A stretch of 64,000 nucleotides of DNA from an uncultured Acidobacteriaceae bacterium (GCA_963837915.1 CAWIPZ010000046.1:469-64468); one strand, 5' to 3'. Shown: positions 1 through 50,281, counted from the stretch's first letter. Notes: a model not told the origin generated them from the letters alone. Made by a program: numbers and translations.

Positions 1-865
1 GTTTACGTGTACATCGACCCGCGAAACCGTCAACCTTTCTATTACGGTAAAGGGCAAGGTTCGCGGCAATTTTCACACCTCTTGGATGTCAAAGAAGGTG
101 CAAAAACGGCAAGGATCAAGCAGATACAGAAAGAAGGGCAAACGCCAATCGTGCGAGTCGTTGCCACGGGGTTGACCGAAGAACAGGCGTTGCTCGTTGA
201 AAAGACGCTCATCTGGCACTCTCGGGGCCTGACGAACATCGCGACTGGTCACTTCAGTGACAAATTTCCGACCTGCGAATACTCTTCATAGGAAGCTTCC
301 CGGCTTCGATTATCCAAACCAAGTGCATTACTTCAACGTTGGCGATGGAGAACACCGAAGCTGGGAGGATAACGTGAAATATTGCTATCTGGGGGCGGGT
401 CAAGCGAAGGCGTTTCGGGACGCCATACGCAGACTTCATCCGGGAGACATCGTGGTAGCCCGGTTAAACAAAGCTGGCTATGTAGGGGTCGGGCGAGTCA
501 TGTCGGAAGCAACTCCCGCGAGGGATTTTCGAGTCCCAGAGTTTGCTAAGAACGCTTGCGGGAAATTGTTAATTGACATCGTCCAAACTGCCGTCAAAGA
601 CAACTTGGACGATGACATCCGTTGCGAGTACATGATTGCAGTGAAGTCGATCAAGAGTGTGACTCGCGATGGAGCTTTCTGGAAGAGAAATGCAGGTCTC
701 TTTGCACAGCGAGGGACAACTCAGGCCAGTTTGGGCAAGCAACCCAAGACGATAGCCTTCGTTGAACGACACTTTGACATCAATATCGAACAGCTTGCGA
801 ATGACAGGGATGGGAATTCTAAACGCAGGTCGCAGCTACGGGACGGCGATACAAAAAAGGCATGA
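1..865 (+). pseudogene. GIY-YIG nuclease-domain protein, 5' partial at the window edge. It appears frameshifted (around 260-290) into a C-terminal uncharacterised domain.
   Basis: Frame 1 is open from nt 1 and reads VYVYIDPRNRQPFYYGKGQGSRQFSHL (GIY...YxGKG motif), ending at 291. ORF 257..865 in frame 2 continues without an obvious RBS (LPGFDYPNQVHYFNVG...HPGDIVVARLNKAGYVGVGRV). The fusion is inferred from the overlap only. Confidence 0.45.
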
Positions 866-2335
866 AAATCTCCAAATCCAAATTCCTTGCGGGATGCCAG
901 TGCTTCAAGCGCCTCTATTGGCAAGTGCATAAGCCGGAATTCGCGGTAGAGCCGGATGCTGCGACCGAGGCAATCATTCAGCAGGGGCGCGAAGTCGGCA
1001 TGCTCGCCCGCCAGTTGTTTCCGGGCGGCGTCGAGATTCGGAGCGATCGCGGTCTCGACCAGGCGATTCGTGCCACGCGGGAGCTAGTCGCCAACCCGGC
1101 AGATCCCACGATCTTCGAGGGAACGTTCAAGCACCACAACGTAGTGGTGCGCGTCGATATGTTTCATCGACGAGGAGACGGTCGATGGCGGCTCATCGAG
1201 GTCAAGTCGAGCACGGCCGTTAAGGACCACCATGTCGACGATTTCGGCATCCAAAGCCGTGTCGTCTCTGGTTCCGGCGTGGATTTGGCGTCGGACTGTC
1301 TGGCGCACGTCAATCGCCACTACGTATTCGAGGGCGGCTCTATCGATGCCTGGCGGATCTTCAAGATCAGGAATCTGACCCGCCGAGTCGAGCGGTTGCA
1401 GCCGAAGATGACCTTCCAACTCCGGTCAAAATTCACGCCGGTTCTGGCGATGCCGAAGGCTCCCGAGATGCCTCCCGGGCGCCATTGCACCAGACCGGTC
1501 ACTTGCGAATTCTACGACCGCTGCAATCCGCCACGTCCGAAGGATCATATTGGATACCTGCCGAGCTCCCACGCGAGTGCCGCAAAGGAACTGGAAGCAA
1601 TCGGACTCGAGTCGATCCTCGATATACCGGAAGACTTCGATTTGACGGAGATTCAGAGTCGAGCGGCTACAAGCGTACAGACGGGCGATCCGTGGTATGA
1701 CAGCGTAGCCCGAAGGCGGAGCTGGTGACGATGCCATATCCGATCTACTTCGTAGACTTCGAAACCGTAAACCGGGCAATTCCTAGGTTCACAGGGATGC
1801 GTCCTTATAGCAGTTACCCTTCCAGTGTTCGCTCCATTTGCAGACGGAACGAGGGTCACAACCCGAACACCATGAGTTTCTCGCCATGGATGCCAGCGAT
1901 CCCCGGCATGAATTCGTTAGGTCGTTCTAGACGCACTCGGCGAGCACGGAACCATAGTCGTGTATAACGCAGGATTCGAATCCCAGCGGCTCTCAGAACT
2001 CGCCGGGTGGCTGCCGGAATTCTCCGGCCGGGTCAGAAGATTCAGGTCGGCTGTGGGATTTGCTGCCCGTAATTCGCGACCGCGTTTACCATCCGGCGTT
2101 TGCCGGATCGTACTGATTAAAGTCTGTGTTGCCTGCACTCGTCCCCAGGATGACCTACGCGGCATGACCGTGGCGGACGGGCAGGATGCGGGCTGCTTGG
2201 CAGGCGCTCATTCGCGGAACCTTGGACATCACAGAGCAAGACAAGATCAGGAAGGCGCTGCTGGACTATTGCGGACAGGATACGCTGGCGCTGCTCAAAC
2301 TGCTTGAAGAACTTCGGCGGCTGATCTCCGTCTGA
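862..2335 (+). pseudogene. DUF2779-family (PD-(D/E)XK-like) protein, heavily frameshifted
   Basis: The N-terminus MKISKSKFLAGCQCFKRLYW is typical of DUF2779. Family-like blocks continue in changing frames: YPIYFVDFETVNRAIPRFTGMRPY (frame 0), QLPFQCSLHLQTERGSQPEHHEFLAMDASDPRHEF (frame 2), LDALGEHGTIVVYNAGFESQRLSELA (frame 1), LWDLLPVIRDRVYHPAFAGSY*LKSVLPALVPRMTY (frame 2, TGA at 2114-2116), and AWQALIRGTLDITEQDKIRKALLDYCGQDTLALLKLLEELRRL (frame 2, stop at 2333-2335). Confidence 0.75.
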
Positions 2336-2337
2336 TT

Positions 2338-5300
2338 CTAGCTTGTCAGCTTGGAGGTCAGGTCTCGCTTCAATTGCGCGAGGGAAGTATAGCGCTGACG
2401 CTCTATGGTCTCGACCTCGGCCCTTGAGCATTGGATATTGGCAAGGTATGAGCTAAACGATCCGCGATTGCCGACGAGTTCAATATCTCGACTAAAGGCG
2501 AACTCTAAGACCGCTCGGGGGATTGACGAGTTCGTGATGAGGACTGGCTTGAACGTAAACCCGCTGACCCTGATACTGCCGTGAAATGCATCGCAAGAAC
2601 TGATCAATTCCATCAGCATCTCTCTATCCACTGCGTTGGTCCATTGGGTATGTTTACACTGGATGAGCCGAACCTGCGAGCCTTGCTGAGCCACTACGTC
2701 GATCCCGCCATCTCCTGACTTTGGCTCCCCCAAACATTTCTACCGTACTTTCCCTCAATGAGCGCAACGAAAAACTCAAACCTGTCCCACGTCATCTTGC
2801 TTAAGTCATCGACGGTCAGAAGTTGTTGCCGAGGCACCGCTCGACAGGTGGCACCCAACGAGTCCAGCAGTTCTCCTTGGAGGTCTTCGTCACTTGGCAT
2901 CGGTGCAAGGAAGTCCGCAGCTAGCTGTTTTCGGCGCGTGAGAAGCGCATCCAACTTCTCGTCGAATGAGGGAAAGGTACGCTCCGGGTGCTTCGCAATT
3001 GGATAGTACACATGGACGGGTTTAGTTTGCCCAATCCGATACACGCGGTCCGTGGCCTGAGATTCTTTTGCCGGGTTCCACCATCGCCCATAGTGAATAA
3101 CGTGATTGGCTTCAACGATGGTCAAGCCGATGCCTGCGACATCGGGCGACAGAATTAAAACGTTGAAGCCAGAAGATTTTCGAAATGCTTCCACTATATG
3201 GAACGCCGTGAGCTACCGATTCCCCTCCGTCCGTCTTTACTAGAAGCACCGTTAACGATATGGACTGGGAACCGGAAGACGTGTTCAAGTGTCAGAGCGA
3301 GCAACTGCTGCATGTCGATGCTGCGCGTAAAAATGAGCGCCTTCTCTGAGGCGCTCCATATTTTTTTCAGGCAATCGATCACGCTTTCAAGCTTGGGGCA
3401 GCTTCAATCGCATCCTCAGCCGTCGTCGGTTCAAAACGTGGGACTAGTGCCGGGTGCTGCGAAACTCTAATTAGATTGTGGAGGATGGAGAACGGATGAC
3501 TCTCTGGCGTACTGCCTGAGCGCCTATTCAGCAGATCGATATGCCAGTTCAGTTGCGCTTGTGAAAGATCGCTTTCCAAGTAGTGCTCGTGCTTCGGCGG
3601 GAGGTCTAAGACATCCTCCTTGTTGCGCCGTAACAGGTGGGCATCGGACATGCCGAGCTTCAGTCGCTCTCTTAGCCTTGGCAAGTTATTGGTTTGTTCT
3701 GAAGACTCGTAATTGCTTCTAAATTCGGAGGCGCTTCCCAGCAGTATTCCCGGCTGTAGGAAATCGAATAGGTTCCAGATGTCGAAGAGTTGGGTCTCGA
3801 CAGGAGTTCCCGTGCAGGCGATCCGAAATCTTGCGGTCAGTGCCTTCAACGCATGCGAAACTTTTGTGCTTGGTGTCTTGTATTCCTGAGCCTCATCCGT
3901 AACTACAGCAGACCATCTCATTCGTGCAAATGAATGCTGATAGTTCACCACAGTTTCGTAGTTGGTTAGTACGACCTTGTATTTCCGCAGGGCGTCCAGC
4001 CTCAAGGCCGCGTGGCCGAGCGCTGTTTCCCTGCCTTGAACATCAGGGTTTCTAAATTGCTTAATCGTCGGCCCGTGCAACACAAGGAGAGGTTCGAAGA
4101 CAGCGCCCTCGGCACGAAAAAATGAGCGCATATCAGATTCCCATGTCGCGTTTTCAATGAGAATCACTGGAGCGACAACCAAAATTGGGTTCCAAGGAGG
4201 TAGGTACCCGTTGCCGTCCTGCTTGTCTGAAAGGTCGCCCGATTCTATTAGCGACGCTAGAAAAAGAAGAACCTGAAGAGTTTTTCCAAGACCCATGTCG
4301 TCGGCCAACAAGCAGCCGCTTCTGTTTCGATCATAGTTTTTCCGAAGCCACTGAAACCCAATAGTCTGGTGAGGCTTCGCCTCGGGCGTCGAATGCAGTC
4401 GGGACATTTAGAATGTCGCTAGTTTCGTTGCCGCCATCCGCCTCCTGATAGTCCACTTGCGTTTCATTCGTCAGAATCAGTACGTATTGCCCGGAGCGTT
4501 TCGGCTCCTCTGGCTGCATCGGCCTGCTCCCGTCGTCTGTTAGCAATCCGTCGAGTGAACTCTCAAGCGCGGAATCTACCGAAATTGTCCGACCATTCAT
4601 TTCGACAGTACCAACACCACGGCTTCGAGCGTCCGCCACCTGGTTTCTAAACTGTAAGAGTTCTTGCCGCGAAGAAAAACGCACCCGCTCACAGGTGCCA
4701 TCCGTATATCGGCACTCAAGCCCATACTCAGGTGTGCGAGGTGCTACTGGAGGAAGACCATCAAAGATGCCAGTGCGTGCATCAACATACGGCCTGACGG
4801 CAAATGGGAAGTCACCTACTCCGGTTACGCGTGGCCCAAAGGCAAACTCCATCGCACCCGACAACCCATCAAATACCGCTGAGGGATCGCGCATCACTTT
4901 TGCTTTCGACTGTCCACCCAGATGCCTGACTCGTTGGATACGGCGAAGAACCTCTTGTTGCGTGTCGTCGAAAATCACGCGGATACGACCGCCAGCAGGA
5001 TCGTCAACCGCATAAACGCTCTCGATGTCATCGGCAGCAAAGAACGCACTGGTGAGCCTGTCCTGAGGTACGCCCTCAACCTTTGGGACAAACGAGATTC
5101 GCCCACCTGCCTCGGCAACAATATCGACTCCCAGCTTTGAGGGCAGCAAGACACGTTCTGAACTCAAGTCTTGTCGAGTTTCGCGCCTACAGAGCTTGCC
5201 AGACCCTTGATTCGACTGAACTGAAGCAGGGCGCTACTAGTCCGGTCGGCCGACTGAGTGGCATTAAATGAATCAATCGCTTCGAGCAAGTTGAATGAGG

Positions 5301-5709
5301 CAGCATCAAGCCTGAAACAATCGTTGTGAGCACAAACGAAGCAGCCGCGTCGCTCAAATGGTACTGGCGAGCGTCCTTGGAAGAACCGATACTGATACCG
5401 GAAATCGGGCGCTCCCAACCAACGTGTTGACTCCAATTCCAGCGTAAATGGTGACCATTTGCATAGATTCTCGAATGCGTCGATTTCCTGTGATTCAAGC
5501 TCCGCGAACTCCGGGTAGGGTATGCACCAAGTTGTTTCCGACTGCCTGGACCCGATCTCCATATCCTCCAATTGAAGAAGGAGAGCCGGAAGTATTCTCT
5601 CGAATCTGGATACCGTAGATGAGCGTGAGCCTTGGCCATGGGTGATGATGACACCCTCAGTCTCGGCAGTCACTATGACGGAGCCGCTATTCAGTAAAGT
5701 CCAACCCAA
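2338..5709 (-). pseudogene. zorD: ZorD-like SNF2-family helicase with a C-terminal Mrr-type restriction nuclease domain, split into six ORF fragments
   Basis: The fragments are 5709-5164, 5167-4331, 4407-3379, 3382-3194, 3194-2694 and 2733-2338, in frames 0,1,0,1,2,0. SNF2 motifs: KPHQTIGFQWL, LLADDMGLGKT, VVTDEAQEYK. Helicase-C: FNVLILSPDVAGIGLTIVEANHVIHYGRWWNPAKESQATDRVYRIGQ. Mrr-like: FEFFVALIEGKYG / GDGGIDVVAQQGSQVRLIQCKH. An RBS (GGAGAGG) precedes the TTG start at 5709. Confidence 0.7.
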
Positions 5710-5719
5710 TTAGCCTCTC

Positions 5720-7151
5720 CTATGGATGGATGCCGAACTGTGCCAGCAACGTTCTCATCTTGCTCTGCCAGAGAACATTGTGGCTGATTCCTTTTCTGTC
5801 TACACAGTTTTCTGGTTGCTTCAGTTCTTTGATGGCGAATCGGTGATCTGACCAGAAATCCTCCATCAAGTCCGGTACATCCCTGTTTGCGTAGAGAAAC
5901 ACTGCGTTCCCGTATTTGCTGAATTCAACCACTATCACCGAACCGAAATCCAACAAGAATGCGCTTGTATTGCAGTTGTATCCATCCTCCCGAAGTTCCG
6001 CTTCCCCTTGGTGGCCGATTTGCTTGCCAACGGCTCTCGTCCAGAGAGTCGAGAAGTGGTCGCGATCTCTTCACCTTATTCTTGTACTTCAACCAGAAGG
6101 GCTTCCTGCCGTGAGGGTCGTCTCGCGTGGGCAACACATGGTCAAAGAAAAGCTGGATGTCCTCAGCAGAAAGCCACTGGATGACTAGGTCACGTGCGGA
6201 ATTGCTGATCCCGATCCAATTGGTGCCGTTTGCCGGAAGCCGGGGGTCTAACAGCCGAGAGTCGGTCAAGATGAAGGTCTTGAGGCGTTCGGAATGCTGC
6301 TGAGAGGACCGGGTGCAGGCAATAACCAATTGTTGAATGGCAGTCTTGAAAGAACTCGGTCTCCAGTGCCGACTCGGAAGAACCTCTCTAATCACGATGT
6401 CTTGAAGCCTCTCGGCATCACCACCGGAGCGACTGAGCGATTGAGCTACACACTTTTCCAGCACTTGATTCCCAAATTCGGTATCCGGTTCCAACGCCCA
6501 CGCGTTTGCACACGTTTCCCACGGGAACCCATCTCGGAGAATATCCCTCGCGAAGTATTCCGGACCCTCCTGATTCAGGACGTGTTGCAACCCGTATTTC
6601 CATTTCCCAAGCAGGGCATTTCTTGTTTGGTATGTTGTCAGAGCCACAACAAGGTTCCCAACAGAGGGTGAGTTGGCGACGCTGTCCCAGCGCCTATGGA
6701 CGCTGCGAACTAATCCTTGAATGGAACGGGCACTAATTCTTTCCGGGCTCAGTGCTACTGACTGGAATGCAGGCAGAATTGCTACCTCAGTTTCCCAACT
6801 CAAGTATCGGAGGGCTCTGGGAGTGAGTTCGGCAGAACCGCCAGAGCCAACTCTATTCCAGAGCGCAATGTAGTCCGGCGGACACTTTGCGGGTCGGGCC
6901 TTCTTGGGTTCCGATAGCTTGGCGACCGTGGCAAGCAATTTGCCAATTGTTCGAGCAGATGGATTCGCCGGAGGAACGGCGTTGTGCATAGCGCCGTATA
7001 AGCGCTCTAATCCAGCAAGAACTTCCAAGAGAGAACGTGTCTCGGCCATATGACAGACGCTGCTACACCTGATGGCGTTCTTCGAACGAACGAACACGAA
7101 TCTTAAACTGAACGCGGCGACTCCGCTCTTTGTCCTCTTTGCCGTTGCCAT
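5720..7151 (-). pseudogene. zorC: ZorC-like EH-signature-domain protein with one frameshift near 5960-6070. The likely true start is the ATG at 7049.
   Basis: The 408-aa ORF (7151-5925) ends in ...ILVGFRFGDSG. The alternative frame, open from about 6070, reads ...AFLLDFGSVIVVEFSKYGNAVFLY...SHNVLW (E...H signature-like tail) through to 5720. It sits between zorB and zorD in a tight operon. Confidence 0.55.
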
Positions 7152-7743
7152 CGAGTACTGGGTCTCGACTCCCTCGTCCGTTCGCAGACAAGAAATCGAG
7201 AAAACAATTCTTCAATTCAGCATCCTCCTTGCCAAGTGCCTTTAACTCGGCATCCGCATTGCCGAGAATACCTAAGGTCTGTTGAACGACTGCCAAGGAG
7301 CGACTCTGACTCAGTCCTAGATTGTATTCATCAGTTCCATTTGAATTCGTGTAACCCTCTACCACAATCGAACCGATTTCATCGTGAAATCGCTCATTGC
7401 AGGTGATCTTTGCGAACCGGGGCACAAACTCACTCAAGAACTCCTCGCCCTCTATGGAAATCTTGGATTCATTTTCATCGAATTTGAGGGCTTTCTCGGG
7501 AACCAGCACAAGAAGTCCTAAAGGGTCTCTAGGGTCTTGCTTCACGCTTACGCCCTGTTTTTCAAAATCTTTTAGCTCTTGTGTGAGTTTGTCCAGCATC
7601 AAACTGCGCGTGTTTGCGCCTTCCTCCGAAGCATTGTTGAGTGTTGCCACCAGCAAAAGAACGAAGATCACCATCAGCGATGTCATCAGGTCGGTTAGGG
7701 AATTCGACAGACTTCCGCCGCCGCCCCTGCCTTCAGTTGCCAT
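7063..7743 (-). CDS. zorB: ZorB-like MotB/OmpA-family stator protein
   Basis: Single N-terminal TM helix with an Asp just before it (SLTDLMTSLMVIFVLLLVATL). OmpA-like C-terminus (VVEGYTNSNGTDEYNLGLSQSRSLAVVQ). Overlaps the zorA stop by 11 nt. Confidence 0.7.
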   Translation of the reverse strand: MATEGRGGGGSLSNSLTDLMTSLMVIFVLLLVATLNNASEEGANTRSLMLDKLTQELKDFEKQGVSVKQDPRDPLGLLVLVPEKALKFDENESKISIEGEEFLSEFVPRFAKITCNERFHDEIGSIVVEGYTNSNGTDEYNLGLSQSRSLAVVQQTLGILGNADAELKALGKEDAELKNCFLDFLSANGRGSRDPVLDGNGKEDKERSRRVQFKIRVRSFEERHQV

Positions 7744-9712
7744 GTGGAGCCTTCCCCGCCGACCTCGTGGCTAAAACCTCGCTCAAGTCCTGAAGATATT
7801 CCTGTAGCTCGTCCACCGTCGCTCCCAGCCTCTGAGTTGCGGAAGAAAAGTGTTCATCCGATACCTTTATGAGGGAGTCGTACCCCTTTTGGCATAGCTC
7901 CAAATGCTGGCCGAGATTGCGCTCCAATGTCTGGAGCAGCGACGAAGCCGAGGTTTCGACTTTCGCAAAGGTGTACTCGTACTGCTGCATGGCTTGGGAA
8001 ATCCTGCCAATGAGGTTCTGTTGTTCACGGCCTGCCAAAGCGAGGTTCTCCACTTGGGTCGAGGTCAACCCGGCGATCCGCTGGAGGCTGTCCTGAGAGT
8101 CCTTAACGGCCTTTGCCGCGCCGCTCATTGCGGTTGTACAAACGCTTGTGTCCGATACTATTTTTTGCAGTGTTACGAGGATCGAATTGAAATGAGAGGC
8201 AGATGTGTTGAAACGGCTCGCGGATTCCTCAAGTGCTCCTCGAAGTCGGTCGACGGTGTTCAGTTGGCTGGTGTGCTTCTCAATGAGGGTTGCAAGCTGC
8301 TCCTTGCTAGCAACACTCCAGTCGCTGGCATCTTTCAGGACTGCCTTTGCTACGTCGGCGCTTGCTTGCGAACTCTGAGCCATTGTCGTCCGGCTATGTT
8401 CCGTCAGTTCGGTCACACGTGTCGAAAGGTCGGACATCAAAGCCGTCAGCGCAGCCCCCATGTCTTTCACGGAAGACCCGGTGGTCTGCTCAATCTGGGT
8501 CAGCACGGAACGAAGGACGTTCGTGAGGTCTTCAATCTGACTTCGACCAAGCGCCATTTGCTCCGTGGTAGAGTTCTTGGCGAATGTGACAAGCTCGGTG
8601 AGCGCCGATTGGGTAGCCTGATTCTGCGTATTCATCTGTTCGAGGACAGATGCTGTCCCGGCGACAGAGTCCGACAGACGAGCAAATTGTGTCATCGTGC
8701 TACCTGACAGCGACGAAGTGAACTGCTCTCCCATCTTTCCGAGAGAGTCGGCCAGCGAGGTCTCCAACCGCGAGATCATTCCTCCCAAACTTTCGGAAAT
8801 GGTGTCACTCTTCGCGGCCTCGGCCGCCCGAAGTAGGTGGTTCAAATCTTCTACTGCGATAACCATTCTTTCGAGCGTGGGCCCCATGCTCTCACTGAAA
8901 GATTGCTTCAGGCGACCTGCCAAGTCTGCGTTGAATGCCCTGAAGGCAACGGACTGCTCGCCCATATCTTTCTGAAGTTCAACGAGCACGTGCATCGTTG
9001 TTAGTGCCGGAATCACGGCGTCTATCGCATCGGTAAGGTCAGTGACCGACCTATCAAGCTTGTGCAGTTGGGTTTTTTCGAAGATAACGAAGAGCGTCGC
9101 CGCGAGCAACGCGGCTATCGAGGAGACAAATTTTCCCGAGAGTCCCTCGATAAGCAAGTCGATTCCTTCGACACGATTGTTCTTGAGGTGTACATGAAGC
9201 AATGCCACGAGAATTGCGACGAAGGTGACGAGGAGTCCTGTCCCGGCCAAGATTCCGGGAATCGCGTCATACCACTCACGATTGATGTACGCATCGGTAA
9301 CGGACGAACGCTCAAGGATTTCAGAAGCAGGGACGGAGAGCCAGTACTCGTCACCCGACGGTCCGGTTCGGCGAATCACCTTCTGTTGCAGTTGTGTCCA
9401 GCAACGTGAGAACAGTGGTAGCTTCGTGAATTGAAGTCTAATCTGCTCAAGTCCCGTTAGCGTTAGAGCAGTTCCCAGAGTTGTCTTGGGAAGTTTTGCC
9501 AAGGCGGATTGTAGTTTCTTCTCTGATGCTCGAAAGTTATAGACCTTAACGAATAGTGTCGCGGAAGCCCAAAGCGCAGACAGCAGCAGGATCAAAGCTG
9601 CCATCCATGCAAACAGAGGCGCATTTATGCCGATGAATTGCTTTGAGGCAATCAGAAGATTCATTAGGTTCATTTCAGACGAAACCTTCCACGCAGTGCG
9701 CCAGCGACTCAA
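7733..9712 (-). CDS. zorA: ZorA-like MotA/ExbB-type membrane protein with a long helical C-terminal tail
   Basis: Three predicted TM helices, including IPGILAGTGLLVTFVAILVAL and FVSSIAALLAATLFVIFE. These are followed by about 430 aa of low-complexity A/S/T/Q/L-rich sequence that is probably coiled coil. The longest ORF starts with TTG at 9712. The ATG at 9673, preceded by GGAAGG, is a more likely start. Confidence 0.7.
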   Translation of the reverse strand: MSRWRTAWKVSSEMNLMNLLIASKQFIGINAPLFAWMAALILLLSALWASATLFVKVYNFRASEKKLQSALAKLPKTTLGTALTLTGLEQIRLQFTKLPLFSRCWTQLQQKVIRRTGPSGDEYWLSVPASEILERSSVTDAYINREWYDAIPGILAGTGLLVTFVAILVALLHVHLKNNRVEGIDLLIEGLSGKFVSSIAALLAATLFVIFEKTQLHKLDRSVTDLTDAIDAVIPALTTMHVLVELQKDMGEQSVAFRAFNADLAGRLKQSFSESMGPTLERMVIAVEDLNHLLRAAEAAKSDTISESLGGMISRLETSLADSLGKMGEQFTSSLSGSTMTQFARLSDSVAGTASVLEQMNTQNQATQSALTELVTFAKNSTTEQMALGRSQIEDLTNVLRSVLTQIEQTTGSSVKDMGAALTALMSDLSTRVTELTEHSRTTMAQSSQASADVAKAVLKDASDWSVASKEQLATLIEKHTSQLNTVDRLRGALEESASRFNTSASHFNSILVTLQKIVSDTSVCTTAMSGAAKAVKDSQDSLQRIAGLTSTQVENLALAGREQQNLIGRISQAMQQYEYTFAKVETSASSLLQTLERNLGQHLELCQKGYDSLIKVSDEHFSSATQRLGATVDELQEYLQDLSEVLATRSAGKAPHGN

Positions 9713-9839
9713 ATGGGGGATTTAGCTCGCGGCGAACAATCCCAGAAAATGCAACGATACACTGTAGTCTTACCGCCCTAGATGTTGCAATGGGTTTGCT
9801 GCAATGGTCTCTGAGTAACTATGTCCTACGAAGGAGCTA

Positions 9840-10850
9840 TTGCCTAAGCTCTGTGCTTGTGAGCAAATCGTACTTTGCGTCAAGCGGGTAGTCGAGCAGC
9901 TTGCGCGGGGCGAAGTACAGGAAGCAATACAGAATCTTGACCGGCAGGGCCGAGTCCATGAGATTCAAGGCCACGACGAGCGCATCACCGCGATTGCGAA
10001 GGACTACGCAAAATCGCCGGAGAACACGCTGGTGATTTCGCCTGATAATCGCTCTCGCATCGAGATCAACGAGCGCATCCATGCGGAATTGCAGCGGAGG
10101 GGCCTCGTTAGTAACGAGGACCACCGCATCCGGACGCTTCTGTCGCGCCAAGACCTCACCGGCGCAGACCGCACATGGGCCGAGCGCTATCAGGTCGGGG
10201 ACGTGCTGCGCTACTCGCGCGCCTCGAAGGAGACTGGCATCGGCAAAGGCGAGTACGCACAGGTGAAGAGCATCGACGCGCCCAGAAACCGGCTGACAGT
10301 AGAGCTGCAGGACGGTACGCAGCGCACCTACGATCCACGCCGACAGCAGGGAGTCTCGGTCTTCCGCGCGGAGATGCGGAGTTTTTCAGTGGGCGACCGC
10401 ATCCAATTCACCGCGCCGGCCAACGACCTCAGAGTTGCAAACCGCGAGTTGGGAACCATCGAAACCGTCGACGGAGATAGCCGGCTGCGCCTGAAGATGG
10501 ACGATGGCCGCGCGGTCGAGCTTGATACACACAAGCGTCCGCACCTCGACTACGGCTACGCCATGACCAGCCACTCCAGCCAAGGGCAGACTGCCGACCG
10601 TGTCCTCATTCACGTGGACACCGAGTTGGGCGCGAAGGACCTGCTCAACAGCCGCATGGCCTACGTTTCCGTCTCGCGTGGACGCTATGACGTGCAGATT
10701 TATACGAATAATGCACAGACGCTCGGGCAAGAACTCAGTCGCGACGTGTCGCATTCTCCTGCGATTCAGCAAGAACCGGTAGCCCACAAGATAGAACCAC
10801 AACCTACACGCACGAATCAGATTGGTCAGGGTTTCGGTCTGGGTCTGTAG
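9840..10850 (+). pseudogene. 5'-truncated C-terminal (helicase) fragment of a conjugative relaxase of the TraA/TrwC/TraI type
   Basis: Family-typical blocks: ITAIAKDYAKSPENTLVISPDNRSRIEINERIHAELQRRG, HLDYGYAMTSHSSQGQTADRVLIHVD, MAYVSVSRGRYDVQIYTN. There is no relaxase or N-terminal helicase part upstream, and the ORF begins inside the domain. Confidence 0.65.
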
Positions 10851-10981: not shown

Positions 10982-11307
10982 TATCATTCCTCTATTCCGG
11001 GAATGTCAGATTTTCGTCAAACGCTCTCATGGCAAATTCGTCTCAGTTCAGTAACAGATAGTGCCCGAAATTCATTCAAAAGGAACTAAGGTGCTACAGT
11101 GGTTGGTTCATGCGGTGGAAATCTCGATCCCCACTCTGCTTTTCTCAGATTTGACGGAAACATGGTCTCGGGCCTGTTGGGCACTTGGTCGAAAACATAA
11201 AAAAACATCGGTCGCTTCGTTATTCAACCGCTCTACATCGATTCGAAGTCCCAAGAATTGCCCCGAGCCTTAAAGGTTCGAATGCTAGAAGTCGAAGGTC
11301 GAGTCCC

Positions 11308-12708
11308 ATGACTCGCGTCGCGATCATTGGTGGGGGAATCTCCGGACTGGCCGCGGCCTTCACACTCGAAGAGCATCGAAGCGCCGGAGATATGGAATAT
11401 GTAGTTTACGAATCGTCACCGCGATCGGGAGGCGTGCTGTGCACCGAGCAGATCCAAGGCTTCCTGATTGAAGCTGGGCCCGATTCTTTTCTCAGCGAAA
11501 AACCTTGGGCTGTAGACTTGTGCCGCGAGCTCGGGATTGGCGATCAGCTTATCGGCTCCAACGACGTCGACCGGAAGACCTATATTCTTGTTCGCCGACG
11601 TCTAGTCTCGATGCCCGATGGACTCATGTTCATGGTCCCGACGAAAATCTTGTCCACGGGATTTTCTCCGCTCTTTTCCTGGAGCACGAAGCTGCGCATG
11701 GCACTGGAATTATTCCATCCGCCAAGGGTGGTCGATGAAGACGAAAGTGTTGCATCGTTTGTCGACCGTCATTACGGAGCCGAAATGGTAACCCGTGTTG
11801 CTGACCCGCTTCTCTCTGGTGTCTACGGTGGTGAAGGTGGCAACCTCAGTGTGCGTGCCGTTCTCCCACGCTTCGCTGAGATGGAACGAACTCACGGCAG
11901 TCTCGGCCGTGCAATGCTTGCTGCTAGAAGAAAAATGTCGCACGCGGCAAACAAAACTCTTCCTCCGCTTTTTACTTCTCTCAAGAACGGTATGCAACAG
12001 CTCGTTGAAGTGCTCGTGTCTAAGCTCAATCGCGCTTCCTTACTCACCAGCACTCCCGTGCAATCTATTGAACGCGAAGAGGGAGAGTGGAGAGTTAATG
12101 CAGGACTCAAATCGAATAGCTTCGACTCTGTCATTGTCGCTCTCCCTGCGCCTGCGGCTGCGCAGATTTTGTCGCTCTGTAGTTCAGAGCTATCCGCAGA
12201 ACTTGCATCTATCGGCTATAGCTCTTCCGTTACCGTCGGACTCGGTTACGACCGCGAAGTCCGCAAATCCCTACCCCCTGGCTTCGGATTTCTCGTGCCA
12301 CGTGCCGAAGGCAAGCGCCTGCTGGCCACGACTTTCGTTCATAACAAATTCCCCTATCGAGTGCCTGAAGGTCGAGCTCTGCTGCGCTGTTTCGTCGCTG
12401 GACCGAACGCCGAAAACATCTGGCAGGTTTCCGACGATGGAATCGTCGCCCTCGTCCGCGACGAATTGCATCAGATCCTTGGCGTACAGGCGACGCCTCT
12501 TTTTGCTCGCGTCAATAAATGGAAGTCAGCTATGGCGCAGTATGGCGTTGGACACCTTGAACGTCTCGATCGCATCGCGGGCCTGCTCAGGCAAATGCCC
12601 GGTCTGGGGCTCGCCGGTAACGCGTACCACGGCATCGGAGTCCCTGATTGTATCCGCTCCGGTCGTGAAGCTGCCCGGCAGGCAATGCAGCGGCATGAAT
12701 CACCTTAG
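11308..12708 (+). CDS. hemY: Protoporphyrinogen/coproporphyrinogen III oxidase, HemY (FAD) family
   Basis: MTRVAIIGGGISGLAAAF dinucleotide-binding motif and family-length protein. The ATG at 11308 was chosen inside the longer ORF 11185..12708. Confidence 0.85.
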   Translation: MTRVAIIGGGISGLAAAFTLEEHRSAGDMEYVVYESSPRSGGVLCTEQIQGFLIEAGPDSFLSEKPWAVDLCRELGIGDQLIGSNDVDRKTYILVRRRLVSMPDGLMFMVPTKILSTGFSPLFSWSTKLRMALELFHPPRVVDEDESVASFVDRHYGAEMVTRVADPLLSGVYGGEGGNLSVRAVLPRFAEMERTHGSLGRAMLAARRKMSHAANKTLPPLFTSLKNGMQQLVEVLVSKLNRASLLTSTPVQSIEREEGEWRVNAGLKSNSFDSVIVALPAPAAAQILSLCSSELSAELASIGYSSSVTVGLGYDREVRKSLPPGFGFLVPRAEGKRLLATTFVHNKFPYRVPEGRALLRCFVAGPNAENIWQVSDDGIVALVRDELHQILGVQATPLFARVNKWKSAMAQYGVGHLERLDRIAGLLRQMPGLGLAGNAYHGIGVPDCIRSGREAARQAMQRHESP

Positions 12709-12795
12709 CTCACGACGACGGTGATTAACAATTGTCTTTGAGCGCAGGCCCGCCATAGCTCTGCTTCTTCCAACGTCACCGTTTCTAGGGGCTTC

Positions 12796-13746
12796 TTAGG
12801 GTCGTGATGGAGCGCCAAAGCCACGCTCGTAAACAGCTTCCAGGATTTTATCGCCACCTCGGTTCAATAGGATTTTTCCGACGGTGTTGCCAAGTTTCTC
12901 GGGATCGCTCACATTGCCTTCGCGTGATTCGCGAAGAATCGTTGAGCCGTCGGGATCGGCGACGATGGCTTCGAGATGGAGCTCGGCACTGCGAATTGTC
13001 GCAATCGCTCCGATTGGAACCTGGCAGCCTCCGCCGAGACTGTTGAGCAAGGCGCGCTCGCATGTCGTAGCGGCGCGGGTGGCGGCATCGTTCAGAAATT
13101 CCAGATGCTGGCGAACAGTGCTGTTACCTTCGCGGATTTCTATGCCCAGCGCCCCCTGCCCAGCCGCAGGGCACATGATTTTAGCGGGAATGATCTGCTT
13201 GATCAATTCCGTTTTGGCAAGACGCTTCAATCCGGCGAACGCCAGAATGATGGCGTCGTATTCCCCCTGTTCGAGTTTACGCAAACGCGTATCGATGTTG
13301 CCTCGTAGGGGATGAATGTCGAGATCGGGACGAACGGCCTTGAGTTGCGCTTGCCGGCGTAGGCTGGATGTACCCACGCTCGCGCCCTGAGGCAAGTCTT
13401 GAATGTTCGAGTAACGCCGCGAGCAGAAGGCGTCGCGTGGGTCTTGCCGTTCAGTAATTGCAGCGATTTCGAATCCTGCAGGAAGTTCTGTGGGCAGGTC
13501 CTTCAACGAATGGACAGCAAGATCGACGGCTCCGTCGGCGAGGGCTTCCTCGATCTCTTTCGTGAACATGCCCTTGGTGCCGACCATCGCGAGCGCCACG
13601 TCGGTGATCTTGTCACCAGTGGTATGGATGATTTCGATTTCAACTGGATGACCGCGTTCGCGCAGAAGCGCGGAAATGTGGTTGGCCTGCCAGAGAGCGA
13701 GTTGCGAACCCCTGGAGCCGATCCGCAGTCTAGGCATTAGTGGCAT
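12796..13746 (-). CDS. hemC: Hydroxymethylbilane synthase (porphobilinogen deaminase)
   Basis: [17 protein letters not shown]...HTTGDKI...GGCQVPIGA are typical HemC blocks. Confidence 0.92.
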
Positions 13747-40373: not shown

Positions 40374-41528
40374 CTAGGAAGCGGCGATATGCGCGGTCGG
40401 CGTGTGAAGGGGCAGCAATACCGTAAATTTGCTGCCGCTTCCTACGACACTGCTTACTTCGATCCGGCCGTGATGATCTTCCACGATACGGTGAGCCAGC
40501 GAAAGGCCGAGACCTGTACCGTCACCCTTGGTCGTGTAGAAAGGCCGGAAAATGTTGGGGAGGTTCTGAGGAGAGATGCCTCGGCCGCTGTCGCTTACAA
40601 CCACACTGGCATAGCCATCTTGCGTATCGATCTCGACACACACTTTTCCTGCACCGTCCATGGCCTGGACCGCGTTCAAAAGCAGGTTCAGAAGCACCTG
40701 GTGGATTTGATCGCTGTCATGCTCCACCTCAGGCAGATGGGGCGCCTTTTGCAGTTCGATCTTGATTGGTCTGGAGACTACCTGCTGGCGAGCCAGCATC
40801 ACGGCATGTTCCACCGTCGTGTTCAGGTTACTGCGGCGAATCTCGGGACGGCGGGGCCGCGCCGTTTCCAGAAGGTCGGTTAAGGTGCGACTGATGCGGG
40901 TGATCTCCAGCCGAACATCTTTCACGACTGCGCGGGCGGGACTGGTTGCGGGCAGATCGCGGCCGACGATTTCGATGACTCCTGCTATGCCGGCCAGCGG
41001 GTTGCGAATCTCGTGGGCCAAGCCTGTGGCCAACTCACCGAGTGTTGCCAGGTGTTCAGCCCGCGACATTTGTGTGCGATGCAGGCGTTCAATCTCCTCA
41101 CGGCTTTCGCGCAGTTGCTGCATCATGTGGTTAAAATTGCGGCCGAGGTCTCCGATTTCGTCGTTGCGCTGGGAGAAGCTGACAGCAACATCCAAGTTAC
41201 CGTCGCTGACCTGCTCCATTTTTTCCTGCAATTCAACCATGGGCCGTTGAATCAGATACGCAAGCACAAACATTGAAACTGCGCAGATAGCAACTGCGCC
41301 TGCTCCCGCGACGATCAGTACAGCGTGGCGGTCGGGGTCGCGCAACGAGACGGTGGCCAAAGTGAAGAGTAGCAGCCCCGCCAACAGGACCAACCCTACC
41401 GGCAAAATTGCTTTGAGCTGCCAATTGACGCGTACAGAACTCAATCGGAGGTCCTCCTCCTGACTCGTGGGGGCTGACGCCGCCAGTGGCCCAATTGCTT
41501 TCGCCGCAAACTGATTGCGGCTAGGCAT
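40374..41528 (-). CDS. Sensor histidine kinase (2 TM helices, HAMP, HisKA, HATPase_c)
   Basis: Two TM helices separated by only about 9 residues (SLRDPDRHA), H-box LAHEIRNPL, and G-boxes DSGRGI / GTGLGLS. Confidence 0.88.
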
Positions 41529-42924
41529 AAGCGTGCATCCCAGGCAGCAAGTAAGTCACGCCGAAGAAAGTGAACATCACTACGGCAAACCCAAGGATGG
41601 CGAAGTAAGCAGCGCGCCGGCCTCGCCATCCACGAGTGATACGCATGTGCAGATAGCCCGCGTACACCAACCAGGTAATTGCAGCCCAAGTCTCTTTCGG
41701 ATCCCAGCTCCAATAGGAGCCCCAGGTGCGATTGGCCCAGTAGGCGCCCGCCGCGATCATCAGGGTGAGTAAAGGAAATGCGATCGCGATGGTCTTGTAG
41801 GTAATGCGGTCCAGTTCGTCCGCACTCGGCAACATGCGCTCTAAGTCTTCACGCCTCCAGAGCAGTAACAGGTACAACAGCGATACAAAGATTGCGCCCA
41901 CAAGGCCGGAGAGAATAAACGGGCTGGCGGCCAGAGTGGTGGGGAATAAACCGTCGGCATCGAGAGAAGCGTAACGGCCATCGCGGGCTCGGAGCACAAA
42001 GAACACTACCGCCAGTATCTGCAACAGGATGCTCAGGAACACGGCTCGATTGGCCATGTCGAGCAGCTCCTCATTGTGAGTCTTGTGCCAGATGAGATAA
42101 AGAACAAGCGGTGCCGCTACTGCCGCCATCACCAGAAGGAGCAACCAGCCGAGATCAGGAATCACAACGAAGAGGCGTACGCCACGGGACAGGAAGGCTT
42201 CCGACTTTTCTTCGGGGTTCCACGCAACGACGCTCAGCCCTCCCCATTTTTCAAAGCGGGTCAGGACGCCCACATACGTTGCGACCGTAAACAAGCTGGT
42301 CGCCGCCAGAAAGGTTTCAGTTTTCATCTTGTCCTGGATCAAGAACATCATGGCCAGGGCGAAACTGAGTGCGCATGCCGCATAGGCGAGCATGGCTAGT
42401 GTGACGTGGACGTGCAGCCAGGTCGATTGCAGCGCCGGCACCAGAGGACGAACCTCAGTCCGCAACAACTGCATCAGCACAACACCTACGATCGCGACCG
42501 GCATGGTCACTGTCCCGATTACCTTCACTCCATATTTCTTCTCGGCAACCAGCGTGAGCACGGCCAGAGTCCATACGAACATGAGCAGCATTTCGTAAAT
42601 GCTTGCGAAAGGCGGATGCCCAGCCTCGTACCAGCGGCGCGCTACCGCGCCAGTGTTGGCTAGCAACCCCGCCCATGTGGCCAGCGAGGCGAAGCGAATA
42701 TAAGAAGGAGTGCCAGTGATGCCGAATCCAAGATAGAGCGTTCCCGCGCCTGCATAGAAAATAAGCGCGGCGTAGAGGAGGTTGGAATCGTTGAGCAAGT
42801 TGCCGCTCTTGACCACGTTCAGAAACGCCATGAACAGCAGGAAGGCAACCCCCAATCCCACCATTACAACCAGCGTGTTGCTTGAAGCTCTCGGTTGCCG
42901 TTCGATTGTTGCGACGCGTGTCAT
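41521..42924 (-). CDS. ccsA: Cytochrome c biogenesis protein CcsA/ResC (System II)
   Basis: Polytopic membrane protein with the WWD-type motif [26 protein letters not shown]. Confidence 0.88.
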
Positions 42925-42942
42925 CGATGCTTCCTCCGTGGT

Positions 42943-44388: not shown

Positions 44389-44502
44389 AACTTTCCTCTT
44401 CCCGCACTGAAGAAAGCACGTTTCGCGCCATTATTGGAGGTTCGGCGAAGTTGTTGAAATTCCACGTCGTAAGGAGAATCGGCTTGATCCGCAAAAGCGC
44501 GT

Positions 44503-44518
44503 TGTGAGCCATATCACA
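44503..44518. promoter_or_regulatory. Perfect CRP-type box TGTGA-GCCATA-TCACA
   Basis: Exact consensus in the divergent region between the ccsB operon and the 16-haem cytochrome operon. Confidence 0.55.
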
Positions 44519-44764
44519 CAGCGGATTGGAATTCCGCGGGGATTTGGCGCAGACTAATGCCGCTAGCGCGGCTTCGGTTCGTTCGTCCGAGGAGCCTAGT
44601 TCCATGGGTCATTTTGACCATTTCACTGCGGGAGAATCCGCAAAGTAGTGAAAGTCTCAACGATTGCGAGCTCTCATAGAGTCGAACCCGGCTCCCAACT
44701 GATTTTGTTGCAATGTATTAGAGAAGATGTTCGGAAATCCACCGAGTCGGAGAGCTAAGGCGAG

Positions 44765-46315: not shown

Positions 46316-46317
46316 AT

Positions 46318-48997: not shown

Positions 48998-49010
48998 TTG
49001 GTTGTTTTGC

Positions 49011-50269: not shown

Positions 50270-50281
50270 GGGGTTGACGCT

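What the first reader, a model, noticed from the sequence alone, without database searches (positions are those of the whole stretch)
2338..9712. Type I Zorya-like anti-phage operon with intact motor genes (zorAB) and broken effector genes (zorCD)
Seen in the sequence:
- Four co-directional minus-strand genes with overlapping or near-abutting junctions.
- Gene 1 is a 659-aa MotA/ExbB-like membrane protein with a roughly 430-aa helical tail.
- Gene 2 is a 226-aa MotB-like protein with an Asp just before its TM helix and an OmpA-like domain.
- Gene 3 has an EH-signature-like C-terminus (VVEFSKYGNAVFLY).
- Gene 4 is a roughly 1,160-aa SNF2 helicase (LLADDMGLGKT, DEAQ box, helicase-C) ending in an Mrr-type nuclease (GDGGIDV...QCKH).

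Established knowledge: this four-gene order and domain content define type I Zorya (ZorA-D).

Unusual point: zorC carries one frame change and zorD five, while zorA and zorB are uninterrupted.

Inference: this is either a decaying system in which ZorAB is retained, perhaps for another role, or a population/assembly artefact.
Basis: partly seen in the sequence, partly recalled or inferred. Interest (0 to 1): 0.7.

Follow-up and report, generated by a model that had tools for sequence, protein, structure and literature searches.

The report
Zorya operon broken by assembly errors
This is an ordinary four-gene type I Zorya anti-phage system on a mobile cassette in a soil Acidobacteriota genome bin, and its "broken" effector genes are most likely long-read sequencing/assembly errors near a contig end rather than biological decay.

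Summary
The type I Zorya call is correct. PADLOC and Pfam models identify zorA, zorB, zorC and zorD in the canonical co-directional order on the minus strand. The frame breaks are in the sequence too: two 1-bp deletions in zorC, and five frameshifting indels plus one in-frame 3-bp insertion in zorD.

The breakage is not specific to the effectors. It continues through the next two genes, a DUF2779-like nuclease and a GIY-YIG nuclease, to the window edge. There are 17 private indels in window 1-6016. There are none in 6017-9891, and about 38 chromosomal genes from 11 to 64 kb are intact.

Ten near-identical copies of the cassette (94-99.8% DNA identity) were recovered from public metagenomes.
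- All five JGI or Logan contigs have no private indels. One of them, L005, shares the window's own insertion junction and has intact zorC and 5' zorD.
- All five Flye-style ENA contigs carry their own, different indels. In L014, zorAB is shattered and zorCD is intact, the reverse of the window.

The window's indel spectrum (mostly 1-bp deletions outside homopolymers) matches those error bursts. The window's contig is an unannotated 69.5-kb NCBI/ENA MAG contig, and the damaged stretch lies within 11.5 kb of its end.

Verdict: a real Zorya system whose "decay" is probably an artefact. Interest is low.

The parts
7733..9673 (-). zorA. MotA/ExbB-like membrane motor subunit with a long helical tail, 646 aa, intact. 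The longest ORF extends to a TTG at 9712.
   Evidence: PADLOC ZorA1 E=1.2e-21, with alignments covering residues 24-648. Identical 646-aa proteins carry PF28082 ZorA-like_t1. 0 differences from L005.
7063..7743 (-). zorB. MotB-like stator subunit with Asp18 before the TM helix and an OmpA-like peptidoglycan-binding domain, 226 aa, intact.
   Evidence: PADLOC ZorB1 E=9.1e-41 and Pfam OmpA 9.3e-8. The identical protein occurs on 6 other contigs.
5720..7049 (-). zorC. EH-signature DNA-binding effector, 443 aa in relatives. As assembled it is interrupted by two 1-bp deletions.
   Evidence: Pfam EH_Signature 1.2e-19 and PADLOC ZorC1 on both fragments. tblastn with intact L004 ZorC shows three frames.
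6016..6017 (.). 1-bp deletion in zorC. On the coding (minus) strand a T is lost from AAATC[T]GGCC. Not in a homopolymer.
   Evidence: Present in all 6-8 relatives and absent only in the window.
5980..5981 (.). 1-bp deletion in zorC. On the coding (minus) strand a G is lost from GGATGGA[G]TACAAC. A private substitution lies at 5998, between the two zorC deletions.
2338..5709 (-). zorD. SNF2 helicase plus Mrr-type nuclease effector, 1122 aa in relatives. As assembled it is split into six pieces.
   Evidence: The six fragments map collinearly on PADLOC ZorD1 PDLC00631. Pfam SNF2-rel_dom 6.7e-47, Helicase_C and Mrr_cat. The intact counterpart in L014, about 99% identical in DNA, scores 4.4e-201 end to end.
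5169..5170 (.). 1-bp deletion in zorD. On the coding (minus) strand a T is lost from GACAAG[T]ACTTGAG. Not in a homopolymer.
   Evidence: Intact in L005, L014, L013, L004, L002 and L001.
4384..4386 (.). 1-bp insertion in zorD (coding strand CC->CCC).
3405..3406 (.). 1-bp deletion in zorD. On the coding (minus) strand a C is lost from GCGATT[C]GAAGC. Not in a homopolymer.
3195..3199 (.). 2-bp insertion in zorD (AT->ATAT).
2725..2730 (.). 1-bp deletion in zorD, clustered with three private substitutions within 6 bp (window plus strand GGC-TCCCCC versus GGCGACAACC).
2464..2468 (.). In-frame 3-bp insertion in zorD with two adjacent substitutions.
862..2335 (+). DUF2779-like (RecB-family) nuclease gene, convergent with zorD, 492 aa in relatives. 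As assembled it has about six frame changes (about 1707, 1810, 1929, 2036, 2161, 2192) and an in-frame stop near 2110. The centre of the gene is a divergent allele.
   Evidence: tblastn with the L002 protein. Homologues carry PF11074. Codon-position bias of substitutions is 29/13/67, so the allele is real.
1..820 (+). GIY-YIG (LEM-3-like) nuclease gene, cut by the window edge, 282 aa in relatives. As assembled it has +1 at about 262 and -1 at about 817.
   Evidence: tblastn gives 96-99% identity in two frames. DNA alignment. The intact L014 copy hits PADLOC PDC-S11 at 4e-34 and PD-T4-3 at 6.5e-14.
9891..9892 (.). Left junction of the shared Zorya cassette. Homology to L001, L003, L004 and L016 stops here. 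L005 continues 25 nt further with the window's own flank.
9892..10850 (+). Helicase C-terminal fragment (UvrD_C_2) abutting the cassette junction, probably a truncated gene.
   Evidence: Pfam UvrD_C_2 at residues 238-282 of the 336-aa ORF. Weak PADLOC PDC-M16A and RecD hits.

Best explanation
The locus is a genuine type I Zorya defence operon (zorABCD). It sits on a mobile cassette that also carries a DUF2779 nuclease gene and a GIY-YIG nuclease gene. The cassette is integrated near hemC in an Acidobacteriota (Ca. Sulfotelmatobacter-like) metagenome-assembled genome.

By homology it should work as described for E. coli Zorya I. ZorA5B2 is a peptidoglycan-anchored, proton-driven inner-membrane motor. 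On phage-induced envelope perturbation it signals through the long ZorA tail to recruit ZorC (DNA binding) and ZorD (SNF2 helicase/nuclease), which degrade the invading DNA.

The frame breaks in zorC and zorD are most likely not biological. They belong to a roughly 6-kb low-quality stretch of consensus at the window's start, within 11.5 kb of the end of the 69.5-kb contig. That stretch carries 17 private indels across four genes. The likeliest cause is low or mixed read support in a long-read (Nanopore/Flye-type) metagenome assembly, for an island that occurs in several variants and contexts in the same communities. zorAB look spared because they lie outside that stretch. They are also almost invariant among the cassette variants, so any mis-recruited reads would still agree there.

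Shown: the gene identities, the indel positions, their privacy to this contig and their spectrum. Inferred: the sequencing technology of the window's contig and the coverage explanation.
For: Zorya identity
- PADLOC ZorA1, ZorB1, ZorC1 and ZorD1 hits, and Pfam OmpA, EH_Signature, SNF2, Helicase_C and Mrr_cat hits, in canonical order.
- The intact counterpart in L014, about 99% identical in DNA, gives ZorD1 at 4e-201 end to end and ZorC1 at 7e-22.
- The mechanism is taken from PMC11946911.

Artefact
1. There are 17 private indels at window 262-6016, spread over GIY-YIG, DUF2779, zorD and zorC. There are none in 6017-9891, where the sequence is 100% identical to L005 over zorAB. No split genes were found among about 38 chromosomal genes at 11-64 kb, most of them with full-length Pfam matches.
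2. L005 shares the window-specific flank beyond the cassette junction, so it is the same lineage. It has intact zorC and the first 1.2 kb of zorD. Over that span the window differs from it by 3 deletions and only 4-5 private substitutions.
3. Private indels occur in the window and in all 5 Flye-style ('contig_N') ENA contigs: L014 has 30-32, L016 has 47, L002 has 4, L015 has 3 and L013 has 1-2. They occur in 0 of 5 JGI or Logan contigs.
4. Which gene is hit differs from contig to contig. L014 has zorA and zorB shattered within 2.5 kb of its contig end while zorC and zorD are intact. L002 has zorA and zorD hit. In L016 every gene is hit.
5. L017, a syntenic chromosomal contig from another assembly with a neighbouring ERZ accession and the same contig naming, has its 918-aa ACS/GNAT gene in five pieces.
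6. The indel spectrum matches. 1-bp deletions make up 60-65% of events in the window, L014 and L016. In the window 8 of 11 of these fall outside homopolymers, compared with 18 of 29 in L016 and 7 of 18 in L014.
7. Substitutions between the window and L014 in the zorD SNF2 region fall 0/0/6 by codon position. The underlying allele therefore looks purifying-selected, not decayed.
8. The broken protein fragments occur on only one contig in a 15-billion-protein collection. That contig is an unannotated 69,524-bp NCBI+ENA contig.
9. Related GTDB genomes are MFD long-read MAGs. Those are Nanopore-only, assembled with Flye --meta and polished with one round of Medaka (PMC12313526).
10. Three contigs from one sample (ERZ25039454) carry the cassette in different contexts. 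The island is therefore a multi-copy or multi-strain repeat in such assemblies.
Against: - The sequencing technology and read depth of the window's own contig could not be established. The contig is not retrievable.
- The rest of the contig is clean, so the error burst has to be local.
- Within the window the indel density peaks around 1700-2200 rather than at position 1. That is not the monotonic rise towards a contig end seen in L014.
- The window has fewer private substitutions per indel than the L014 and L016 bursts.
- Structural loss of zorD is seen in relatives. L001 (a JGI contig) has zorD truncated after about residue 547, and in L015 (a Flye-style ENA contig) zorD homology ends next to an ISL3 transposase fragment. 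Natural effector loss is therefore plausible in this cassette family.
- That the Logan and JGI contigs derive from accurate short reads is my inference and was not verified.
Confidence: 0.75

Rival explanations
1. Genuine, very recent decay. The distal half of the island (zorC 3' end, zorD, DUF2779, GIY-YIG) has been inactivated and is accumulating indels in this lineage. zorAB are still under purifying selection, either for an effector-independent role or simply because they have not yet been hit.
For: - The indels are in the deposited sequence, and zorAB are perfectly conserved.
- If indels fell uniformly along the cassette, the chance that all 17 land in 1-6016 and none in 6017-9891 is about 2e-4. 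This is my own calculation from the positions.
- Structural loss of zorD is seen in relatives: a truncation in L001 and an ISL3 transposase fragment next to a truncated zorD in L015.
- The clean remaining 58 kb argues against a globally poor assembly.
Against: - Every indel is private to one contig.
- The same-lineage contig L005 lacks the three indels it covers.
- Against L005, the indel-to-substitution ratio is about 1:1.5 in zorCD. From my own knowledge, natural pseudogenes accumulate several-fold more substitutions than indels.
- Most events are 1-bp deletions outside homopolymers, sometimes inside 3-4-change clusters within 6-36 bp. Spontaneous frameshifts concentrate in homopolymer runs (established knowledge).
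- Substitutions in zorD are synonymous-biased.
- The breakage ignores gene boundaries and functional modules.
- Other long-read contigs show the opposite pattern, with zorAB broken and zorCD intact.
Confidence: 0.2
2. Chimeric or mixed-haplotype consensus. This is a specific form of the artefact. The near-invariant zorAB-zorC 5' block acted as a collapsed repeat in the assembly graph. The contig leaves it along a branch belonging to a rarer variant, or reads from several variants were polished together. Either would produce indels where haplotypes disagree.
For: - At least three contexts of the cassette occur in one sample.
- zorAB differ by 1.3% or less among variants. zorD differs by 4-7%, and the centre of DUF2779 by 15-38%.
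- Indel density is highest in the most divergent segment.
- At about 2036 and about 2161 both the window and L013 carry deletions exactly where L014-type and L004-type haplotypes switch, and both show hybrid sequence there.
Against: - The zorC and zorD indels at 6016, 5980, 5169 and 3405 sit in stretches where all known variants are identical for +/-15-20 nt. Haplotype conflict does not explain those.
- This explanation cannot be tested without the reads or the assembly graph.
Confidence: 0.35
3. Programmed frameshifting or phase variation of the effector genes.
For: None beyond the presence of the frame changes.
Against: - Seven separate indels would need seven recoding events.
- None lies in a slippery heptamer, and only one (CC->CCC at 4384) lies in even a short nucleotide run.
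- Relatives encode single intact ORFs.
Confidence: 0.01

Closest known systems
Type I Zorya (ZorABCD) of E. coli NCTC9026 and related systems (Doron et al. 2018; Hu et al. 2024, PMC11946911)
   Same: - Same four genes in the same order and orientation.
- ZorA is MotA-like with a tail of about 400 aa.
- ZorB has the TM Asp and an OmpA-like PG-binding domain.
- ZorC has the EH signature.
- ZorD is an SNF2 helicase with a C-terminal Mrr nuclease.
- All four pass the PADLOC Zorya I models.
   Different: - The host is Acidobacteriota. Relatives in GTDB genomes are only 66-79% identical in ZorA.
- The operon is carried on a cassette together with DUF2779 and GIY-YIG nuclease genes and, in relatives, a serine recombinase.
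- As deposited, zorC and zorD are out of frame, probably through sequence error.
Near-identical cassette copies in public metagenomes (L004 Logan SRR16963053; L005 Logan ERR10755938; L014 ENA ERZ25039484 contig_5740)
   Same: - 97-99.8% DNA identity over zorABCD.
- L005 shares the window's flank.
- Over zorC and zorD, L014 is 98.8-99.6% and L013 96-99.4% identical per 500-nt bin.
   Different: - Wherever these copies cover them, ZorC is 443 aa and ZorD is 1122 aa, both uninterrupted.
- L014 instead has zorA and zorB shattered next to its own contig end.
Local consensus-error bursts in Nanopore-only metagenome assemblies (for example MFD-LR MAGs: Flye --meta plus one round of Medaka; PMC12313526)
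   Same: - Deletion-dominated 1-bp indels clustered in a few kb, private to one contig.
- The same pattern is seen in L014, L016, L002, L015 and L017.
   Different: - The window's burst has a lower substitution load.
- Within the window it does not rise monotonically towards the edge.
- The technology of the window's contig is inferred, not known.

Membership tests
Type I Zorya | ZorA: MotA/ExbB-like transmembrane domain followed by a long alpha-helical cytoplasmic tail | tested here: met
   PADLOC ZorA1 models, best E=1.2e-21, with several aligning residues about 24-648 to nearly the full profile. Identical 646-aa proteins are annotated PF28082 ZorA-like_t1.
Type I Zorya | ZorB: MotB-like protein with a conserved Asp at the TM helix and a peptidoglycan-binding OmpA-like domain | tested here: met
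   PADLOC ZorB1 E=9.1e-41 over residues 14-219. Pfam OmpA 9.3e-8, above the gathering score. Asp18 precedes LMTSLMVIFVLLLVATL.
Type I Zorya | ZorC: protein with an EH-signature domain | tested here: met
   Pfam EH_Signature at 71.4 bits (cut-off 27.5) on the 5' fragment, and PADLOC ZorC1 on both fragments. The intact homologue scores 6.6e-22.
Type I Zorya | ZorD: SNF2-family helicase with a C-terminal Mrr-like nuclease | tested here: met
   Six fragments are collinear on PDLC00631. Pfam SNF2-rel_dom 6.7e-47, Helicase_C 2.2e-10 and Mrr_cat 1.4e-7. The intact homologue scores 4.4e-201 over profile positions 46-1064 of 1071.
Type I Zorya | Gene order zorA-zorB-zorC-zorD, co-directional and tightly spaced | tested here: met
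   zorA and zorB overlap by 11 nt. The zorB-zorC gap is 13 nt and the zorC-zorD gap is 10 nt. All are on the minus strand.
Type I Zorya | All four genes are intact ORFs (a complete, potentially functional system) | tested here: not met
   As assembled, zorC has 2 frameshifting indels and zorD has 5. This is judged a probable sequence artefact, and intact versions exist in relatives that are 99% or more identical.
Type I Zorya | Confers anti-phage protection that depends on all four components | not testable with these tools
   This requires phage infection assays. The requirement for all components is reported for E. coli Zorya I in PMC11946911.
Genuine pseudogene (decaying defence system) | The inactivating mutations are reproducible in independent sequence data from the same lineage | tested here: not met
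   L005, which has the same flank and identical zorAB, lacks the three deletions it covers. The fragments are unique to one contig. The deletion allele at 5980 was not found in the metagenome scan, although that scan also missed known intact copies and so carries little weight.
Genuine pseudogene (decaying defence system) | Relaxed selection signature: substitutions spread evenly over codon positions, and indels mainly in repeats or homopolymers | tested here: not met
   Window versus L014 in the zorD SNF2 segment gives 0/0/6 differences at codon positions 1/2/3. 8 of 11 1-bp deletions are outside any nucleotide run.

The most novel reading that the evidence does not exclude
The indels are real. 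This Acidobacteriota lineage has lost the ZorC and ZorD effectors and the neighbouring nucleases within a very short time, while keeping a perfectly conserved ZorAB motor under selection. That would imply that the ZorAB envelope-sensing motor has an effector-independent function, or can work in trans with effectors encoded elsewhere.
Probability: 0.1. Interest if true: 0.5.

Novelty: new member of a known kind. Interest (0 to 1): 0.12.

Why it matters
As biology, it adds little. It is another type I Zorya, here in an under-studied phylum (Acidobacteriota) and on a cassette that moves between genomic contexts.

Its main value is as a caution. Frameshift-riddled defence genes in long-read MAGs can mimic "decaying" or "orphan-module" systems. 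Surveys of defence-system integrity, for example counts of partial Zorya systems or orphan ZorAB, would be inflated by such local consensus errors.

If the indels were real, retention of ZorAB without effectors would hint at a second role for the motor. The evidence here does not support that.

Tried and rejected
- megablast of the locus against PLSDB plasmids found no match.
- Two scans of metagenome contigs found nothing. One used a gapped pattern spanning the 5980 deletion and the other the exact deletion allele. The first also failed to recover JGI contigs known to contain the intact sequence, so these negatives carry little weight.
- Attempts to retrieve the window's own contig by exact protein look-up failed for HemC, the 358-aa PPIase and P0001. 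The contig offset, technology and coverage therefore remain unknown.
- A codon-usage frame score for detecting frameshifts in the rest of the window was too noisy to use. It was replaced by Pfam profile-coverage checks on about 38 genes.
- The GTAC motif lies at two deletion sites (5980 and 5169), which suggested methylation-linked basecalling error. Two sites are compatible with chance, so this was not pursued.
- An L016 deletion at 5170 coincides with the window's deletion at 5169. Given L016's indel density, I calculate that at least one such coincidence would occur by chance about one time in three, so it is not significant.
- Looking up the ERZ accessions in the supplementary tables of the MFD-LR paper failed because no supplements are held.
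- Programmed frameshifting or phase variation was rejected: there are no slippery or repeat contexts, and the orthologues are intact.
- Rfam and tRNA scans of the window found nothing.

Full report
**1. What is in the sequence**

Window 2338-9712 holds a run of minus-strand ORFs.
- PADLOC models identify them as ZorA (7733-9712, best ZorA1 E=1.2e-21) and ZorB (7063-7743, ZorB1 E=9e-41).
- Two ZorC fragments follow (5925-7151 and 5720-5956).
- Six ZorD fragments follow (5164-5709, 4331-5167, 3379-4407, 3194-3382, 2694-3194, 2338-2733). They map collinearly onto one ZorD1 profile.
- Pfam adds OmpA, EH_Signature, SNF2-rel_dom, Helicase_C and Mrr_cat.

Two small corrections apply.
- ZorA most likely starts at the ATG at 9673, giving 646 aa as in most cluster relatives.
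- ZorC starts at 7049 (443 aa) and ZorD is 1122 aa in intact relatives.

The type I Zorya call is therefore confirmed.

**2. Relatives and exact indel positions**

A look-up of the exact ZorB protein returned six metagenome contigs, L001-L006, with 96.6-99.8% DNA identity to the window. Later look-ups added L013-L016. In L004, L005, L003, L006 and L014, zorC and zorD are uninterrupted wherever they are covered.

Multiple alignment shows 17 indels private to the window.
- GIY-YIG gene: +1 at about 262 and -1 at about 817.
- DUF2779-like gene: +3 at 1436, -1 at 1707, -1 at 1810, -1 at 1929, -2 at 2036, -1 at 2161 and -2 at 2192. tblastn shows an in-frame stop as well.
- zorD: +3 at 2464, -1 at 2725, +2 at 3195, -1 at 3405, +1 at 4384 and -1 at 5169.
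- zorC: -1 at 5980 and -1 at 6016.

However, the damage is not effector-specific. It runs through four genes on both strands to the window edge.

**3. Where the damage stops**

From 6017 to the cassette junction at 9891 the window has no private indel. Over zorA and zorB it is 100% identical to L005.

Beyond the island, about 38 genes between 11 and 64 kb are single ORFs, most with full-length Pfam matches. They include:
- hemC, hemA and hemH
- a 1224-aa PFOR
- a 918-aa ADP-forming acetyl-CoA synthetase/GNAT
- an aldehyde dehydrogenase
- sigma-54 regulators
- ResB/CcsA
- several multihaem cytochromes.

The contig is therefore clean except for the first roughly 6 kb of the window.

An exact-sequence look-up shows that the window's own contig is 69,524 bp, held by NCBI and ENA, with unnamed proteins. 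The damaged stretch thus lies within at most 11.5 kb of a contig end.

**4. Real decay or artefact?**

Several independent lines favour an artefact.

(a) Privacy to this contig.
- Each broken fragment occurs on one contig only among about 15 billion proteins.
- L005 shares 25 nt of the window-specific flank beyond the cassette junction, where L001, L003, L004 and L016 have a different flank. It is therefore the same lineage.
- L005 lacks the three deletions it covers. Over 5.4 kb the window differs from it privately by 3 deletions and only 4-5 substitutions, all in zorCD.

(b) Association with data type.
- Private indels occur in the window and in every Flye-style 'contig_N' ENA contig: L014 has 30-32, L016 has 47, L002 has 4, L015 has 3 and L013 has 1-2.
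- None occur in the JGI and Logan contigs L001 and L003-L006. Three gaps assigned to L006 lie at the alignment edge and were absent.

(c) The gene that is hit is arbitrary.
- L014 has intact ZorC, ZorD, DUF2779 and GIY-YIG, but its zorB and zorA are shattered within 2.5 kb of its own contig end, where identity falls to 79%.
- In L016 every gene is shattered.
- L017 is a syntenic chromosomal contig from another assembly with a neighbouring ERZ accession and the same contig naming. Its 918-aa synthetase gene is in five pieces.

(d) Spectrum.
- 1-bp deletions make up 60-65% of events in the window, L014 and L016.
- In the window 8 of 11 of them are outside homopolymers, compared with 18 of 29 in L016 and 7 of 18 in L014.
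- Some sit in tight clusters with private substitutions: 2725-2729, and 5980/5998/6016.
- Spontaneous frameshifts are expected mainly in nucleotide runs (established knowledge).

(e) Selection signature.
- Substitutions between the window and L014 in the zorD SNF2 segment are 0/0/6 by codon position.
- In the intact 5' part of DUF2779 they are 29/13/67.
- The underlying alleles are therefore real and purifying-selected, with the frameshifts superimposed on them.

(f) Context.
- The GTDB relatives are Acidobacteriaceae/Terriglobales MAGs, several from the Microflora Danica long-read catalogue.
- That catalogue is Nanopore-only, assembled with Flye --meta and polished with one round of Medaka (PMC12313526).
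- Three contigs from one sample carry the cassette in different contexts. The island therefore behaves as a multi-variant repeat in these assemblies.

**5. Why zorAB would be spared under the artefact model**

zorAB and the 5' part of zorC are nearly invariant among all variants: 1.3% divergence or less, with identical blocks up to 519 nt. By contrast zorD differs by 4-7%, and the centre of DUF2779 by 15-38%.

A contig path that crosses the conserved block and exits into a poorly covered variant branch would give exactly this picture. So would polishing with mixed reads.

At about 2036 and about 2161, both the window and L013 carry deletions where L014-type and L004-type haplotypes switch, and both show hybrid sequence there. 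This fits mixed-haplotype consensus.

The zorC and zorD deletions, however, lie in stretches where all variants agree. Low read support is the better explanation for those. This step is inference, because reads and the assembly graph are not available.

**6. What speaks for real decay**

- The rest of the contig is clean.
- Indel density peaks at 1700-2200 rather than at the window edge.
- The window has fewer substitutions per indel than the raw-looking bursts in L014 and L016.
- Structural loss of zorD is seen in relatives: L001 is truncated after about residue 547, and L015 has an ISL3 transposase fragment next to a truncated zorD.

I put genuine recent decay at about 0.2, and a ZorAB-retention biology at about 0.1.

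**7. Mechanism**

By homology the system should act like E. coli Zorya I.
- A ZorA5B2 proton-driven, peptidoglycan-anchored motor senses phage-induced envelope perturbation.
- It signals through the ZorA tail.
- ZorC (DNA binding) and ZorD (nuclease) are recruited to degrade phage DNA.
- All four components are required (PMC11946911).

The sequence features tested here (the four domains, the TM Asp in ZorB, and the Walker A, DEAQ and Mrr motifs in ZorD) are consistent with this. Function itself was not tested.

**8. Verdict**

The operon is a real, ordinary type I Zorya, a new member in an Acidobacteriota MAG related to Ca. Sulfotelmatobacter (HemC is 82-84% identical to those MAGs).

The "intact motor, broken effectors" pattern is most probably a local long-read consensus artefact (confidence about 0.75). 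Interest is low. The practical lesson is to check read support before interpreting partial defence systems in long-read MAGs.

Noticed in passing
window 1-9891; L001-L006, L013-L016: The zorABCD cassette is mobile. Copies of 94-99.8% identity sit in at least four different flanking contexts with a sharp common junction at window 9891 (CTACCCGCTTGACGC...). The flanks seen are a 1134-aa RNase_H_2/AAA_11-12 helicase plus an N6_N4 methyltransferase in L001, L003 and L016, and a conjugative-element-like context (ArdC, SSB, TraG) in L015. L002, L013 and L014 carry a serine recombinase (Resolvase) gene 2-3 kb beyond the GIY-YIG gene.
   Followed up: partly
window 1-2335 (+); L002, L013, L014: A GIY-YIG (LEM-3-like) nuclease gene and a DUF2779 (RecB-family) nuclease gene always lie convergent to zorD in the window, L002, L013 and L014. 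The GIY-YIG protein hits the PADLOC candidate PDC-S11 (4e-34) and PD-T4-3 (6.5e-14). DUF2779 has no PADLOC hit. This may be a conserved companion defence module.
   Followed up: partly
window 900-2200: The centre of the DUF2779 gene is an allelic replacement. It is only 62-79% identical in DNA to L002 and about 85% to L013 and L014, while both flanks are 97-99% identical. Substitutions are biased to third codon positions, so this is a real divergent allele. It looks like a recombination or diversification hotspot inside an otherwise near-clonal cassette.
   Followed up: partly
window 2338-5709 vs 7063-9673: Among intact cassette variants zorD is far more polymorphic (4-7% DNA divergence) than zorA, zorB and zorC (0.3-1.3%).
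   Followed up: no
L001 12037-14181; L015 4245-5542: Structural disruptions of zorD occur in relatives. L001 (a JGI contig) has zorD replaced by unrelated sequence after about residue 547. In L015, zorD homology ends next to an ISL3-family transposase fragment.
   Followed up: no
window 9840-10850 (+): This 336-aa ORF has only a helicase C-terminal domain (UvrD_C_2 at residues 238-282, with weak PADLOC PDC-M16A and RecD hits). It abuts the cassette junction and looks like the 3' remnant of a helicase gene truncated by the insertion. It is not homologous to the L001 helicase.
   Followed up: partly
window 11185-13746; L017 10001-11929: The island sits next to hemC. In a related strain (L017, HemC 96% identical) the sequence beyond hemC instead carries a phage-type integrase, a sortase and glycosyltransferases. 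This flank of hemC is a variable integration region.
   Followed up: partly
window 41521-55274 and 62347-63990: This is a dense cluster for c-type cytochrome biogenesis and multihaem cytochromes. It contains ResB and CcsA-like genes, four or more proteins rich in doubled-CXXCH and MtrC-like domains (516, 336, 679 and 547 aa; the last is fused to a cytochrome b561 domain), NHL/beta-propeller proteins and a SurA-like PPIase. Haem synthesis genes hemA, hemC and hemH are nearby. The arrangement is suggestive of extracellular or periplasmic electron transfer.
   Followed up: no
L017 6856-9519; L016 whole locus: Other contigs from ENA assemblies with neighbouring ERZ accessions and the same contig naming show gene shattering in housekeeping genes too. 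In L017 the 918-aa ACS/GNAT gene is split into five ORFs and TonB into two. Local frameshift bursts therefore appear common in these assemblies.
   Followed up: partly
window 5169 and 5980: Two of the non-homopolymer 1-bp deletions remove a base inside a GTAC tetranucleotide, and L016 has a deletion at the same 5170 site. This could hint at motif-linked (methylation) basecalling error, but it is compatible with chance.
   Followed up: partly
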